A stretch of DNA of 63,195 bases, filler included, from Anaerolineae bacterium (GTDB lineage: Bacteria > Chloroflexota > Anaerolineae > Epilineales > Epilineaceae), in NCBI GenBank assembly GCA_029262755.1. It is 4 parts of 4 records of this genome, joined end to end, with 100 filler letters (N's around TTAATTAATTAA, not from the genome) between each part and the next. Parts side by side here need not be neighbours in the genome. Positions count along the whole stretch, not along the records: positions 18,027 to 46,236 come from JAJCYU010000045.1; 3 more parts are not named here. One strand, 5' to 3'. The first letter of the stretch is position 1; each line of letters opens with the position of its first letter. The position numbers were made by a program. Positions 42,001-45,000 of the stretch are shown piece after piece.

Positions 42001-45000
42001 TTGCGACCGAGTACTACAGCTGCCGCGCCGAGCTCTTGATCGCGACGACCGCCGGACCGTCGTGTGCGAGCGCGCGATGGAGCGCCGGCCGCACCTCGCG
42101 CGCCGTCGTGACCCGAATCCCGAGGGCGCCGCAGTTCTCTGCGTATGACGCGAAGTTCGGGTTGGACAGGCCGGTTTGCCAAGGGTGGTATCCGCCGGCC
42201 TGCTGCTCTTTCGTAATCTTCGCCAGCTCGCCGTTGTCCAACAAGATCAGGGTGATCGGCATCTTGTACCGCACGGCGGTGTTTAGCTCGGCCATGTACT
42301 GCCCGAATCCACCGTCGCCGGCGATAGCGACGATGGCGCGCTCCGGCGCCGCCGACCATGCGCCCATCGCTGCCGGGAAGGCGAAGCCGATCGAGCCGAG
42401 GTAGCCGCTCATCAGCACGTCCTGTCCGCGGCTCTCGAAGTACTTGCCGAACGCGTACGCGTTGTTGCCTACGTCGACAGTGATCACCGCATCGTCCGGG
42501 CATACCTCGGACAACTCCTGGAAAATGCGGGCGTTGGGCACCCGTCCCTCCGCGTCCTTCGCGCTCGCGATGCGATGCTTCTCGCCGCGCCAATGGTCCC
42601 AGATCTTGGCGACATAGGCTCTTCGCTCGGGGCGGCTCACGGCCGGCAGCGCTTCCCGCAGCCGCTGGACCGTGCGTCCGATCTCGCCCCAAAGCGGGAC
42701 GTCCACCGGATGGAATTTGCCCAGCGTGAGCCGGTCGTAGTCCACCTGGATCGTCTTCTTCTTTGTGCTGATCCCCGTGTGGTTGCTGAAGCTCGCACCG
42801 AGCACCAACAGGACATCGCTCTTGCCCATGGTGGCGCTGGCTACCGGAGTGCCGCTTCGGCCCAGCACGCCGCACGCAAGGGGATGCGCATCCGTGACAG
42901 CGCCCTTGGCCTTGAACGTAGTGAGCACGGGGGCGTCGATGTGTTCGGCCAGCGCAAGGACGGCATCGGCATGCGCGCGACCTCCCTGCCCGAGCACGAT
43001 CGCCGGGGCGTCGGCGCTCGCGAGGAGCTCGATCGCCCGCGCAAGCTCGTCCTCGGGCGGTGCGATGCGATCCGGCGCCAGACGTCCGGCCGGCCCCGAT
43101 GTCGCTGCCCCCGCGTGGGCCGGGAGGTCCTGCATCTCGTCGGGAAAGATCAGATGCCCGACGCCCTGCTCGACGACCGCATGCTTGATGGCGAGCGCCA
43201 TCAGCTCGCCGGCATTCTCGGGGCGGAGGACGGTTTGGCTCCACGTCGTGACGGCGCGGAATGCATCATCGAGCGGCACTTCCTGAAATGCGCCGGGACC
43301 CAAGATTTGCGTTTGAACTTGTCCCGTAAGCGCCAAGATCGGCACCCGATCGGTCTTGGCGTCCCACAATCCGGTAAGGAGGTTTGTCGCGCCGGGTCCG
43401 GCGATCGAGAAGCAGGCGGCCGGCCGGCCGGTCAGCTTCGCGTGACCGCTCGCGGCGAAGGAGGCCGCGCCCTCGTGACGAATCCCGAAGTAGCGCAGAC
43501 GCCCGGCCTCCTCGGCCTTGTAGAGCGCGTCGGCCAGCCCGAGGTTGCTGTGTCCGACCATGCCGAAGACGCGATCGACGCCCCACGCGATCATCGTGTC
43601 GACCATCTGATCCATCAGCGTGGGCTCGTGTGTAGGCTCAACCACGCCCACGTAGATACCGTCCGCACGTTCCTCGACCGGCCATGCGTCCACGGCCTCA
43701 TCGTCGAATTCTCCCGGCGGCTTGCCGTTTTGGGGATCGTACTCCCACCCATGCCAAGGGCAGACTACGTATCCGTCTTGCAGGAAGCCGTCGCCGAGAG
43801 GACCCCCTTGATGCGGACATCGATTGCTGATCGCGCCGTAGCCATCCGCGCTCCGGCTCAAACAGACAGCGTGGTGGCCCGCCTGCACCGTGGCCAGACC
43901 GCCTTCGGCGAGGAGGGTCGTGTCGGCCACTCGAAACCATGTGTAGCGACCGACTTGCTCACCGCCGAGTTCGTGGACGGATGGCTGAGGCGCCAGCGGG
44001 CCATCCGGGGGCGCGGGCATCGCGGCGGAGATCGGGCTGGGCATGGGTAGCTCCGTAGTGGTTCGAGGAGGCGGCCGAGCGGATCGAAACGGGCGCCGCG
44101 ATCCAGCGTGCGCGTGGCTGCGGGTCACCGGGCGTAGTCGGCCATACACGCGAGACCGTTTCGTCGCCGTCGCAGTCTGGCTCGTTCGCGCCGTTTCCGT
44201 GGTGGGGGGGGCGACCAGAGGTAAGGGACGGGCACCGTAGCACGTCGAGCACCTGTGACGCGAGACGCGGCGCTGATTTCACCCACGTTGGGCTATGGGC
44301 TCGTCAAACGATCACAGGCGCTATTCGGCCACCGCCTGGCTGCCCCAGCGCCCCGCTGCTCCACCGCAATGGCGCTGCCATTACCTCGTCACCGCGAACC
44401 ACGGGAACAGCCAAGCGGCGCCGTCGGTAGCAGCCTCCTATTGTTTGACGAGCCCTATGGCTAGCATGGTCGGCCGCTCTTCGTAGGCTGACCTAGACCG
44501 CCCACCCGTCCTGGATGTTGTCCGATGCGCTCCGAGTTGCTCAATCTGTTGCGCCTTCTGGGCAGCCGCCGCCGTCGCTACGGGTGGGGCGCGCTCTTCC
44601 TCGCCCTGTCCGATGGTGGGCAGCTAGGCGTCGCTTGGTTGGTCGGCGAGGCGATCGATGCCTTGTCCGGATCCGGGCCGACGCCGGACCTCACGTCCTA
44701 CGTAGCCGGAATTGCCGTCCTCGCGGTCGTCATTGCGGCCGCGCGCGTGGGATGGCGTATCGCCATCTTCGGCAGCGCGAGGCAGATCGAGCGGGACCTT
44801 CGCCAACGCTTGTACGACCACCTGCAACGTCAAGACGCGCGCTTCTATCTGGGACGTAAGACCGGTGCGATGATGGCCTACGCCACCAACGACATCCCGG
44901 CGGTTCAAATGGCCGCGGCCGGCGGCATGATGGCGGGGCTGGACGCCGGCATCCAGTTCCTGGGCGCAGCCGTCATGATGACGCTCACCGTCGACGCGCG

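What a model noticed while it worked through the whole genome (the two positions that open the first line are those of the whole stretch)
42014..44044. Rieske [2Fe-2S] domain fused to a PoxB-type pyruvate oxidoreductase
g00465 is a 676-aa protein with an N-terminal Rieske domain in front of a complete TPP/FAD pyruvate-oxidase (PoxB/YdaP) body that lacks PoxB's C-terminal membrane-anchor peptide. I read it as a self-contained 2-oxoacid (pyruvate) dehydrogenase that hands electrons from FAD to its own Rieske cluster and on to a soluble acceptor rather than to quinone or O2. New would be a third electron outlet for the pyruvate-oxidase family, in a highly conserved enzyme spread over Chloroflexota, Acidobacteriota and Heimdallarchaeia.
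Evidence so far: Pfam: Rieske 35-108 (4e-15), TPP_enzyme_N/M/C 142-668; 32% to E. coli PoxB over 4-532 of 572, 35% to B. subtilis YdaP. All 120 best of 7999 database hits carry PF00355 with TPP domains, 64-78% identical over the first 300 residues, mostly ~650 aa. In an alignment of 20, C76-x-H78 and C95-x-x-H98 are invariant. AlphaFold2 model pLDDT 81, pTM 0.81 with a folded Rieske domain. Best solved relatives are PoxB 3ey9/3eya aligned from residue 146 on, none with a Rieske domain. One paper holds Rieske + pyruvate oxidase + thiamine + fusion and it is about OFOR.
(Added by a program. Inside this text positions count along the whole contig: they may not be those of the stretch shown here. 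"Call 12" and the like, gene names such as g00115 and contig names such as C1 are that model's own, and its searches are not shown. The text may have been shortened before it was handed on; [...] marks where a part breaks off. The agent that wrote the report below was given it as the finding of a first reader that could run no searches.)

Follow-up and report, generated by a model that had tools for sequence, protein, structure and literature searches.

The report
Pyruvate-oxidase-like enzyme with built-in Rieske cluster
This gene encodes an uncharacterised but widespread and highly conserved relative of bacterial pyruvate oxidase that has lost the membrane anchor and carries its own iron-sulfur (Rieske) domain, predicted to sit on the flavin loop, so it probably passes electrons from a 2-oxoacid to protein partners rather than to quinone or oxygen.

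Summary
Window 42014-44044 (-) encodes a 676-aa protein with a Rieske [2Fe-2S] domain (residues 35-134) in front of a complete TPP_N/M/C body. The body is 32% identical to E. coli PoxB and ends at PoxB residue 532 of 572, so the membrane-anchor peptide is absent.

New evidence for an electron-transfer role:
- The nearest relatives of the TPP body carry a rubredoxin at the same N-terminal position. One variant carries Fer4_19 + 2 CDGSH + Rieske.
- A control-backed complex model (0.64 against 0.12) docks the cluster-binding loops of the Rieske domain on body loop 394-407. This loop contains S397, the equivalent of the FAD-binding Val265 of L. plantarum pyruvate oxidase.
- Clade-specific invariant residues are enriched at that surface (p = 0.01).

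A Rieske + [3Fe-4S] + FMN glutamate-synthase-like gene lies on the same strand within 8 kb in 23 of 79 loci. It lies elsewhere in 19 of 40 further genomes, including this one. Neither gene was found in 150 random genomes of the same phylum.

Substrate, cofactor content and final acceptor remain inferred. I found no publication. Verdict: a new variant of a known kind, interest about 0.7.

The parts
42014..44044 (-). Whole gene, 676 aa (P0001): Rieske domain + TPP/FAD body of the pyruvate oxidase / PoxB type, with no C-terminal membrane peptide
44051..44054 (-). GGAG, a likely ribosome-binding site 7 nt upstream of the ATG at 44044
   Evidence: read directly from the sequence
43952..44044 (-). 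Residues 1-31: unconserved, Pro/Ala-rich N-terminal tail, disordered in the model. Homologues align only from about residue 25-36.
43643..43942 (-). Rieske [2Fe-2S] domain, residues 35-134, pLDDT above 90
43751..43819 (-). Cluster-binding loops C76-P-H78 ... C95-P-W-H98. They have no extra disulfide cysteines, which marks the ferredoxin/NirD-like type (type assignment recalled). They are predicted to touch the flavin-domain loops.
43277..43621 (-). TPP_enzyme_N (PYR) domain, residues 142-256, with catalytic E191 (= PoxB E50) and F253-Q254 (= PoxB F112-Q113)
42659..43042 (-). TPP_enzyme_M, the central domain that binds FAD in this family, residues 335-462
42824..42865 (-). Loop 394-407 (L-G-R-S-G-T-P...). 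It is the predicted docking surface for the Rieske cluster loops. S397 aligns with the FAD-binding Val265 of L. plantarum pyruvate oxidase. R396 and S397 are clade-specific invariants.
42767..42784 (-). Loop 421-426 (N-H-T-G-I-S), the second part of the predicted docking surface. H422 and T423 are clade-specific invariants.
42041..42475 (-). TPP_enzyme_C (PP) domain, residues 524-668, with G576-D-G-G-F580 ... N604 (= PoxB 432-436 and N460), V525 (= V380) and E613 (= E469). The protein ends at PoxB residue 532.

Best explanation
The gene encodes a soluble thiamine-diphosphate/FAD 2-oxoacid dehydrogenase of the pyruvate oxidase/PoxB lineage, with pyruvate the most likely substrate.

Inferred chemistry, taken from the family:
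1. TPP decarboxylates the 2-oxoacid.
2. The hydroxyethyl-TPP intermediate reduces FAD by two electrons.

Predicted here: the flavin is re-oxidised one electron at a time by the enzyme's own N-terminal Rieske [2Fe-2S] domain. The histidine-bearing cluster loops of this domain pack against the flavin-binding loops 394-407 and 421-426 of the central domain.

The membrane/quinone outlet of PoxB, its C-terminal peptide, is absent, so the Rieske cluster is the exit.

Inferred from gene linkage only: electrons then go to protein partners.
- The most frequent partner is a Rieske-[3Fe-4S]-FMN protein of the glutamate-synthase FMN-domain family. It is present in this genome on contig C128.
- In some Bacteroidota and Planctomycetota the partner is a six-helix ferric-reductase-type membrane protein with its own Rieske domain.
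For: The catalytic machinery is kept.
- In 70 family sequences aligned with E. coli PoxB, 174 positions are at least 97% conserved.
- These include E191 (= PoxB E50), F253-Q254 (= F112-Q113), V525 (= V380), GDGGF 576-580 and N604 (= 432-436 and N460), and E613 (= E469).
- The glycine-rich loops of the central domain are also conserved: G352, G354, G392-G398, D410, G416 and D435.
- By sequence and by fold, the best solved matches are the FAD enzymes PoxB, C. glutamicum PQO and L. plantarum POX. The fold match to 3eya has TM 0.91 on the target.

The outlet has changed. The protein ends at PoxB residue 532 of 572.

The Rieske domain is functional in form. The four cluster ligands are invariant in 45 of 45 sequences.

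Other redox domains sit at the same position in relatives.
- An exhaustive search with the TPP body alone found that the nearest non-Rieske relatives (36-46% identity) carry an N-terminal rubredoxin: P0125, P0129, P0132, P0133 and P0143.
- One Rieske member, P0122, carries Fer4_19 + 2 CDGSH in front of the Rieske domain.
- In a tree of 54 bodies, the 12 Rieske forms (SH-aLRT 93) are sister to the rubredoxin forms P0125 and P0129 (joint clade 100). E. coli PoxB falls in another clade.

Docking on the flavin loop is predicted.
- The job was Rieske 32-136 against body 139-676, with FAD and 2Fe-2S riding along.
- The score was 0.64 and the best of 3 controls 0.12. That mark was reached by 116 of 157 solved complexes and by 2 of 215 mismatched pairs.
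- The runs agree in at least 84% of contacts, and the partner pLDDT is at least 87.
- These counts hold only roughly, because my own alignment was used and small molecules rode along. The two chains are also domains of one polypeptide, not separate proteins.
- No solved chain contains both parts, so a pass from memory of a like complex is unlikely.
- Interface residues are Rieske 79, 81, 85-87, 89 and 94-99, and body 394-396, 398, 400, 403-404, 406-407, 421, 424, 426, 484, 488 and 676.
- S397 aligns with L. plantarum POX Val265. I identified this as the only difference between the V265A chain 1y9d and chain 1pow in that block. The FAD-binding role of Val265 is known to me only from the paper title in a reference list.

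Conservation gives separate support. Of the 24 positions that are invariant in the Rieske clade but rare in unfused relatives, 5 lie within one residue of the interface, against 1.4 expected (hypergeometric p = 0.01). They are R396, S397, H422, T423 and K489. Four of the five are identical in the nearest rubredoxin forms P0125 and P0129; at T423 those forms have Ser.

A partner gene is linked.
- The Rieske + Glu_synthase gene lies within 8 kb in 23 of 79 loci. In the 20 tabulated cases it is on the same strand, and in 12 of those 20 the gap is at most 138 nt. Either gene order occurs.
- A close orthologue lies elsewhere in 19 of 40 further genomes, and in this genome (73% identity).
- Neither gene was found in 150 random genomes of the same phylum.
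Against: - No cofactor, substrate or activity was measured. FAD binding is inferred from conservation, and acetohydroxyacid synthases keep FAD without using it for redox chemistry.
- I could not read the model coordinates, so no cluster-to-flavin distance was obtained. That loops 394-407 and 421-426 flank the isoalloxazine rests on one aligned residue (Val265) plus recalled structural knowledge.
- The docking test was made on a monomer. PoxB-type enzymes are tetramers, so the Rieske domain might serve a neighbouring subunit instead.
- The enrichment of clade-specific residues is modest: 5 against 1.4 expected.
- PoxB Phe465, recalled as the residue bridging TPP and FAD, is Lys609 here. The internal route may therefore differ.
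- The partner is not obligate. About 17 of the 40 genomes searched have only ordinary GltB-type matches or none, and these include some of the closed chromosomes searched.
- In this window the neighbours are unrelated: DUF3810 and an ABC transporter.
- The Rieske domains of the two proteins are only about 22% identical.
Confidence: 0.6

Rival explanations
1. The electron-relay architecture is the same, but the physiological substrate is not pyruvate. It would be another small 2-oxoacid, such as glyoxylate, 2-oxobutyrate, hydroxypyruvate, sulfopyruvate or 2-oxoglutarate, tied to a pathway shared with the glutamate-synthase-like partner.
For: No NCBIfam equivalog cut-off is reached. The best is pyruvate oxidase PRK08611 at 397.6 bits against 742, and PoxB PRK09124 scores 334.5 against 792. 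Twenty-four positions are invariant in the clade but rare in unfused relatives; several lie in the PYR and PP domains, for example Y530, Y548, Q582, Y583 and W622. PoxB F465 is K609 here.
Against: Four of the five active-site residues that I recall for pyruvate oxidases are kept and invariant: PoxB F112, Q113, V380 and E469. Unfused relatives vary at three of these positions. The nearest characterised enzymes all use pyruvate.
Confidence: 0.2
2. The Rieske domain is not the electron exit. It is either an electron entry or a redox sensor that gates the active site, taking over the regulatory role that the C-terminal peptide plays in PoxB. Electrons from FAD would then leave to O2 or to a small-molecule acceptor.
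For: The predicted docking buries the cluster loops on the central-domain loops beside residue 676, the C-terminus. In PoxB (recalled) the C-terminal peptide lies in that region in the resting enzyme. The linker is short, with the Rieske domain ending near 134 and the body starting at 142, which limits domain movement.
Against: The same position is filled by rubredoxin in sister lineages, and one member extends it into a chain of three further metal-cluster domains (Fer4_19 and two CDGSH) in front of the Rieske. This looks like a wire rather than a sensor. The linked partner genes all carry their own Rieske domain plus further redox centres.
Confidence: 0.1
3. The enzyme is a non-redox carboligase or lyase, as acetohydroxyacid synthase is, with a vestigial flavin. 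The Rieske domain would be structural or a relic.
For: AHAS-type models also score well (TIGR00118 at 289.6 bits). AHAS keeps FAD without redox use (established knowledge, recalled).
Against: All four cluster ligands are invariant across many phyla. The domain has been repeatedly exchanged for other one-electron carriers. The AHAS cut-offs are not met. The best matches are the oxidising members of the family.
Confidence: 0.05

Closest known systems
E. coli PoxB, pyruvate:ubiquinone oxidoreductase (PDB 3ey9/3eya), and C. glutamicum PQO (PDB 9ev3-9ev6)
   Same: Three-domain TPP/FAD fold: 32% identity over PoxB 4-532, TM 0.91 on 3eya and 0.84-0.90 on the PQO entries 9ev3-9ev6. The catalytic Glu, the GDG...N motif and F112/Q113/V380/E469 are kept.
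   Different: There is no C-terminal membrane-binding peptide. An N-terminal Rieske domain is added. PoxB F465 is Lys here. It falls in a different clade of the body tree and scores below the NCBIfam cut-off.
H2O2-forming pyruvate oxidases (L. plantarum POX, SpxB) and the B. subtilis YdaP-type model PRK08611
   Same: PRK08611 is the best NCBIfam model (397.6 bits). Solved POX chains align over residues 147-655. The FAD-binding Val265 aligns with the invariant S397.
   Different: The score is far below cut-off: 742 for PRK08611 and 637.85 for TIGR02720. None of these enzymes has an Fe-S domain, and they use O2 as acceptor.
Rubredoxin-TPP fusions (P0125, P0129, P0132, P0133, P0143) from Methanomicrobiales, ANME-2 and Dehalococcoidia metagenome bins; uncharacterised
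   Same: They are the closest relatives of the TPP body (36-46% identity). They carry a one-electron metal domain at the same N-terminal position and lack a C-terminal anchor. P0125 and P0129 share the surface residues R396, S397, H422 and K489.
   Different: The carrier is rubredoxin (about 45 aa, a single Fe) instead of Rieske, and the hosts are anaerobes by name.
Reductase plus Rieske-type ferredoxin components of three-component Rieske oxygenase systems (for example the biphenyl dioxygenase BphG/BphF). This is a functional analogy that I recall; I did not test it.
   Same: A flavin hands single electrons to a low-potential-type Rieske ferredoxin, which passes them to the Rieske centre of another protein. 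The Rieske domain here resembles ferredoxin/NirD-type models (Rieske_2; AndAb, NirD and HcaC models hit the related FRD-Rieske protein).
   Different: The electron source would be a 2-oxoacid through TPP rather than NAD(P)H. The ferredoxin is fused to the flavoenzyme. No oxygenase partner was seen in the loci.
Pyruvate:ferredoxin oxidoreductase (PFOR/OFOR). This is a functional analogy that I recall.
   Same: A TPP-dependent 2-oxoacid oxidation that delivers single electrons to iron-sulfur centres.
   Different: PFOR belongs to a different protein family, has no flavin, and uses [4Fe-4S] clusters and CoA. The enzyme here would insert FAD as the converter from two-electron to one-electron steps.

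Membership tests
PoxB / pyruvate:quinone oxidoreductase (EC 1.2.5.1) | TPP_N / TPP_M / TPP_C three-domain fold | tested here: met
   Pfam. Foldseek to 3eya, TM 0.91 on the target.
PoxB / pyruvate:quinone oxidoreductase (EC 1.2.5.1) | Catalytic Glu, and the GDG...N motif for Mg-TPP | tested here: met
   E191 = E50; G576-D-G-G-F and N604 = 432-436 and N460. All at least 97% conserved in 70 sequences.
PoxB / pyruvate:quinone oxidoreductase (EC 1.2.5.1) | Bound FAD that is reduced during turnover | tested here: inconclusive
   The glycine loops of the central domain and the Val265-equivalent loop are conserved. No cofactor was measured.
PoxB / pyruvate:quinone oxidoreductase (EC 1.2.5.1) | C-terminal lipid-binding peptide (PoxB residues about 533-572) that anchors the enzyme to the membrane | tested here: not met
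   The protein ends at PoxB residue 532. Family members match only up to query residues 669-676.
PoxB / pyruvate:quinone oxidoreductase (EC 1.2.5.1) | NCBIfam equivalog PRK09124 cut-off | tested here: not met
   334.5 bits against a cut-off of 792.
PoxB / pyruvate:quinone oxidoreductase (EC 1.2.5.1) | Quinone as electron acceptor | not testable with these tools
   Needs an enzyme assay.
H2O2-forming pyruvate oxidase (EC 1.2.3.3; SpxB / L. plantarum POX / PRK08611) | Curated model cut-offs | tested here: not met
   PRK08611 scores 397.6 against 742, and TIGR02720 scores 292.7 against 637.85.
Acetohydroxyacid / acetolactate synthase | Curated model cut-offs | tested here: not met
   TIGR00118 scores 289.6 against 538.35, and PRK08322 scores 284.3 against 509.
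Rieske [2Fe-2S] domain (PF00355), ferredoxin/NirD-like type | C-x-H ... C-x-x-H cluster ligands | tested here: met
   C76, H78, C95 and H98 are invariant in 45 of 45 sequences. Pfam E-value 9.3e-15.
Rieske [2Fe-2S] domain (PF00355), ferredoxin/NirD-like type | No second cysteine pair (the disulfide of high-potential bc1/b6f Rieske proteins; this criterion is recalled) | tested here: met
   The loops read C-P-H-Q-G-G and C-P-W-H-G-W with no extra Cys. The redox potential itself was not measured.

The most novel reading that the evidence does not exclude
The Rieske-TPP/FAD enzyme and the linked Rieske-[3Fe-4S]-FMN glutamate-synthase-like protein form a two-enzyme system. Electrons from pyruvate oxidation would pass from Rieske centre to Rieske centre and drive reductive amination of 2-oxoglutarate, or another FMN-dependent reduction, with no NAD(P)H or free ferredoxin. 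This would be an oxygen-tolerant, 2-oxoacid-driven glutamate synthase, spread by gene transfer among marine and sediment bacteria. In some lineages a branch would lead to a transmembrane haem-b/Rieske electron exporter.
Probability: 0.2. Interest if true: 0.85.

Novelty: new variant of a known kind. Interest (0 to 1): 0.72.

Why it matters
Pyruvate-oxidase-family enzymes are known with two electron outlets, O2 and membrane quinone. A built-in iron-sulfur outlet would be a third. It would make these enzymes flavin-mediated counterparts of pyruvate:ferredoxin oxidoreductase, built from cofactors that usually tolerate oxygen.

The family is not a curiosity:
- At least 581 species-level genomes encode it, over many phyla including Heimdallarchaeota.
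- Identity across phyla is 51-71%, and 174 positions are nearly invariant.
- It nevertheless has no characterised member that I could find.

The linkage to a second uncharacterised Rieske flavoenzyme of the glutamate-synthase family points to a redox module of central carbon/nitrogen metabolism that is not described in the papers I could search. One carrier, Aureivirga marina LMG 26721, is a cultured strain, so the hypothesis can be tested directly.

Tried and rejected
- Apparent Rosetta-stone fusion. P0295 (1195 aa) carries Rieske, Glu_synthase, Rieske and TPP domains. I rejected it as a true fusion. Its similarity to the partner stops at residue 398, and an Arg/Pro-rich stretch follows to about residue 550. 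It is most likely a frameshifted read-through of two adjacent genes, so it counts only as one more case of adjacency.
- A common, recently shuffled Rieske module in all three proteins. Rejected for the glutamate-synthase-like partner, whose Rieske domain is only about 22% identical to the TPP one and forms a separate clade. The FRD-Rieske domain is closer, at about 34%.
- The FRD-Rieske and 265-aa proteins in this genome. They were not found with these queries; only the Rieske parts of the two known genes matched. The genome is 84% complete.
- Other conserved neighbours. Clustering of all ORFs of at least 90 aa in the 79 loci gave only a Na+/H+ exchanger (6 loci) and lineage-restricted genes.
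- Promoter and terminator scan of 41700-44700: 0 sites of either kind.
- Expression: no RNA holder listed.
- Literature. Searches found no paper on Rieske- or rubredoxin-fused TPP enzymes. I checked passages of the review PMC8097209 for 'Rieske' and found nothing relevant. The PQO structure paper was not found. The PoxB structure paper PMC2582286 is not held. FAD-contact details are therefore recalled, apart from the Val265 paper title seen in the reference list of PMC10474089.
- Protein atlas search for the 265-aa protein: only unnamed or 'DUF5666'-labelled clusters.
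Full report
**What is there.** The window joins four contigs separated by N blocks. The finding lies on the second contig, window 18027-46236, with GC about 0.66. The ORF at 42014-44044 on the minus strand gives a 676-aa protein, P0001. 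Its ATG is preceded by GGAG. Pfam finds Rieske at 35-108 (9.3e-15), TPP_enzyme_N at 142-256, TPP_enzyme_M at 335-462 and TPP_enzyme_C at 524-668.

All NCBIfam hits are to TPP/flavin enzymes. The best are pyruvate oxidase PRK08611 (397.6 bits, cut-off 742) and PoxB PRK09124 (334.5 bits, cut-off 792). No equivalog cut-off is met.

The best solved relatives are E. coli PoxB 3eya/3ey9 (E 4e-82, aligned from residue 146), then L. plantarum pyruvate oxidase, C. glutamicum PQO and acetohydroxyacid synthases. None covers the Rieske part. Against E. coli K-12 PoxB the identity is 32%, query 142-676 to PoxB 4-532 of 572. The last 40 residues of PoxB, its membrane-binding peptide, have no counterpart. 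An AlphaFold2 model built on 45 sequences has pLDDT 87.7 and pTM 0.86. Only residues 1-31 are disordered.

**How widespread and how conserved.** Of the 120 best database hits, 118 carry PF00355 together with the TPP domains, at 60-72% identity. The two exceptions are short proteins on contigs of about 2-3 kb.

By record title, the 79 loci kept come from these groups:
- Chloroflexota, Gemmatimonadota and Bacteroidota, including the cultured Aureivirga marina LMG 26721;
- Acidobacteriota, Planctomycetota, Poribacteria and Myxococcota;
- Actinomycetota, Alphaproteobacteria and Gammaproteobacteria;
- Cyanobacteria, Ignavibacteria/Chlorobiota, Calditrichota, Spirochaetota and Neomarinimicrobiota;
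- Heimdallarchaeota.

Yet none of 150 genomes drawn evenly from the window's own phylum has it at E <= 1e-150. The distribution is patchy. The domain tree mixes phyla; for example, a Heimdallarchaeota sequence sits inside a Chloroflexota group. In 70 full-length sequences, 174 positions are at least 97% conserved.

**Is the body a working PoxB-type catalyst?** The following are conserved:
- E191 (PoxB E50, the TPP-activating glutamate);
- F253-Q254 (F112-Q113), V525 (V380) and E613 (E469);
- GDGGF 576-580 with N604 (432-436 and N460);
- the glycine loops of the central domain.

I recall F112, Q113, V380, E469 and F465 (with their L. plantarum equivalents) as the active-site set of pyruvate oxidases. 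Four of the five are kept. The fifth, F465, is Lys609 in 10 of 12 Rieske forms and in the two nearest rubredoxin forms. This fits pyruvate or a similarly small 2-oxoacid, but it does not prove the substrate.

**Evidence that the N-terminal domain is an electron relay.**

First, the cluster ligands C76, H78, C95 and H98 are invariant.

Second, I searched 1.84 billion representatives with the TPP body alone (residues 139-676). After the Rieske forms, the closest proteins (36-46% identity) are P0125, P0129, P0132, P0133 and P0143. Each has an N-terminal rubredoxin domain in place of the Rieske domain. One Rieske form, P0122 (873 aa), has Fer4_19 and two CDGSH domains in front of the Rieske.
- In a tree of 54 bodies, the Rieske forms (12 rows, SH-aLRT 93) are sister to rubredoxin forms P0125 and P0129 (joint support 100).
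- The other rubredoxin forms and a few unfused proteins make up the wider clade (support 88).
- E. coli PoxB lies in another clade.
- This was a quick search with SH-aLRT support only, on 36 unfused rows that I picked from the top of the hit list.
- The rubredoxin forms come from bins named Methanomicrobiales, ANME-2 and Dehalococcoidia.

Different one-electron carriers occupying the same position on the same enzyme body is what an electron outlet or inlet would look like. It is not what a structural appendage would look like.

Third, a two-chain prediction was run with Rieske 32-136 against body 139-676, FAD and a 2Fe-2S cluster riding along.
- It scored 0.64 against a best control of 0.12. 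That mark was reached by 116 of 157 solved complexes and by 2 of 215 mismatched pairs.
- The runs agree in at least 84% of contacts, and the partner pLDDT is at least 87.
- The counts hold only roughly. My own alignment was used, small molecules rode along, and the two chains are domains of one polypeptide.
- No solved structure holds both parts.
- The contacts are made by the cluster loops themselves (79, 81, 85-87, 89, 94-99). They touch body residues 394-396, 398, 400, 403-404, 406-407, 421, 424, 426, 484, 488 and 676.

Fourth, that body loop is a flavin loop. The V265A chain of L. plantarum pyruvate oxidase (1y9d) and chain 1pow differ at one position in that block. That position aligns with S397 of P0001. 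[quoted passage not shown] I saw only this title, in the reference list of PMC10474089. That Val265 contacts the isoalloxazine is recalled.

Fifth, 24 body positions are invariant in the Rieske clade but present in at most 15% of unfused relatives. Five of them (R396, S397, H422, T423, K489) lie within one residue of the predicted interface, against 1.4 expected (p = 0.01). Four of the five are identical in the nearest rubredoxin forms; at T423 those forms have Ser.

Together these results support the route TPP to FAD to Rieske. I could not read model coordinates, so no distance is given.

In this window the neighbours are a DUF3810 gene (40663-41886, +) and an ABC transporter (44525 onward, +). 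Neither recurs elsewhere.

Across the 79 loci, however, 23 hold a gene of about 540 aa with an N-terminal Rieske domain and a glutamate-synthase FMN domain (PF01645, E about 1e-90).
- In the 20 tabulated cases it is on the same strand as the TPP gene.
- In 12 of those 20 the gap is at most 138 nt.
- The order is GltS-like first in 10 and TPP first in 10.
- Many loci are short, so 23 of 79 is a lower bound.

I then searched 40 genomes whose locus lacks this gene.
- 19 have a close orthologue elsewhere (E <= 1e-140, 62-79% identity, Rieske part included; one of the 19 is split in two).
- 3 have a 43-46% relative, and 1 has fragments.
- 17 have only ordinary GltB-type matches or none.

So 42 of the 63 genomes examined have both genes. 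The other 16 loci were not examined. The window's own genome has the partner on contig C128:6159-7853 (-), 73% identical to the Caldilineaceae copy. None of the same 150 random genomes of the phylum has it.

In the partner, C58, H60, C77 and H80 are invariant, and so is C477-x5-C483-x4-C488-P. I recall that last motif as the [3Fe-4S] motif of glutamate synthase. The partner is therefore itself a Rieske-[3Fe-4S]-FMN wire. Its Rieske domain is only about 22% identical to that of the TPP enzyme.

The linkage is strong but not obligate. It says nothing about the direction of electron flow.

**A second, rarer set.** Six loci also carry a protein with six transmembrane helices of the ferric-reductase type (PF01794) and a C-terminal Rieske domain. 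These are L008, L009, L017, L065, L076 and L077, from Bacteroidota and Planctomycetota.
- It is followed by a protein of about 265 aa with one transmembrane helix and a conserved Cys motif. In L076 the two are fused.
- In A. marina the four genes lie head to tail on one strand.
- This Rieske domain is about 34% identical to the TPP one.
- A Na+/H+ exchanger gene is a close neighbour in 6 loci.
- Neither membrane protein was found in this genome, which is 84% complete.

**Most likely mechanism.**
- Shown by sequence: a PoxB-type catalytic body with an intact TPP site and conserved flavin loops, no membrane peptide, and an intact Rieske site.
- Predicted with controls: the Rieske cluster loops dock on the flavin loop.
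- Inferred from family chemistry: the 2-oxoacid is decarboxylated on TPP, the hydroxyethyl-TPP intermediate reduces FAD, and FADH2 is re-oxidised in two one-electron steps by the Rieske cluster.
- Inferred from linkage only: the cluster hands electrons to the Rieske centre of the glutamate-synthase-like flavoprotein, or to the membrane FRD-Rieske protein. Rieske-to-Rieske transfer has a precedent in three-component Rieske oxygenase systems (recalled).

I put 0.6 on the core (a redox-active Rieske-FAD-TPP 2-oxoacid dehydrogenase with internal transfer). I put about 0.4 on the glutamate-synthase-like protein being a direct redox partner, and 0.2 on the specific reading that the pair is a pyruvate-driven glutamate synthase.

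**Rivals.** The substrate may be another 2-oxoacid (0.2). The Rieske domain may be a sensor or an entry point rather than the exit (0.1). The enzyme may be a non-redox carboligase with a vestigial flavin (0.05). The exchange of carriers at the N-terminus and the invariant ligands argue most strongly against the last two.

**Comparison and novelty.** The protein works like PoxB/PQO up to the flavin and differs in the outlet. It fails two defining features of PoxB membership, the C-terminal anchor and the curated score. It also fails the cut-offs for H2O2-forming pyruvate oxidases and for AHAS. It is best filed as a new variant within the pyruvate-oxidase family, together with the rubredoxin-fused forms.

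Five full-text searches found no description of Rieske- or rubredoxin-fused TPP enzymes. The library lacks most subscription journals, so a description may exist elsewhere. Sources name the proteins only 'thiamine pyrophosphate-binding protein', 'Rieske 2Fe-2S domain-containing protein' or 'pyruvate oxidase'.

**What led nowhere.**
- A 1195-aa apparent fusion of the two partners is most likely a frameshift read-through.
- No RNA run holds the gene.
- No promoter-like or terminator-like sites were found.
- The PoxB structure paper is not held.

Noticed in passing
G000 contig C128:6159-7853 (-) (locus L085); not in the window: The window's own genome encodes a 564-aa Rieske + Glu_synthase (FMN) protein with invariant Rieske ligands and a C-x5-C-x4-C-P motif. 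It is 73% identical to the copy that lies next to the Rieske-TPP gene in a Caldilineaceae genome. Its own neighbours on the 8-kb contig gave no informative Pfam hits.
   Followed up: partly
L008:10573-12401 (+) (Aureivirga marina); also L009, L017, L065, L076, L077: This is a gene pair next to the Rieske-TPP gene. The first gene encodes a six-helix ferric-reductase-type membrane protein with a C-terminal Rieske domain. The second encodes a protein of about 265 aa with one transmembrane helix and a conserved motif...DxKC-x15-C-x3-C-ISGGIPPV. The two are fused into one 803-aa ORF in L076. The 265-aa protein has no Pfam family and only unnamed or 'DUF5666'-labelled atlas clusters.
   Followed up: partly
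L002:13004-14308, L026:5287-6549, L028:5760-7061, L030:5421-7124, L039:9996-11246, L042:937-2217: A Na+/H+ exchanger family gene (PF00999, about 420 aa) lies close to the Rieske-TPP gene in 6 of 79 loci, on the same strand in 5 of them. In L042 it sits between the TPP gene and the glutamate-synthase-like gene.
   Followed up: no
proteins P0125, P0129, P0132, P0133, P0143 and P0122 (database representatives): These are uncharacterised rubredoxin-TPP fusions (587-606 aa) from Methanomicrobiales, ANME-2 and Dehalococcoidia bins. There is also an 873-aa Fer4_19 + 2x CDGSH + Rieske + TPP protein. All have pyruvate oxidase PRK08611 as best model, or are the closest relatives of proteins that do.
   Followed up: partly
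window 1-17926 compared with 18027-63195: The window joins four contigs through pairs of 44-N blocks. The first contig has GC about 0.37-0.42, while the others have 0.61-0.68, so it may come from a different organism than the rest of the bin.
   Followed up: no
protein P0295 (1195 aa, 4 member sequences): This ORF joins a Rieske-glutamate-synthase-like gene and a Rieske-TPP gene. Similarity to the first gene stops at residue 398, and about 150 Arg/Pro-rich residues follow. It looks like a frameshift or read-through, not a true fusion.
   Followed up: yes
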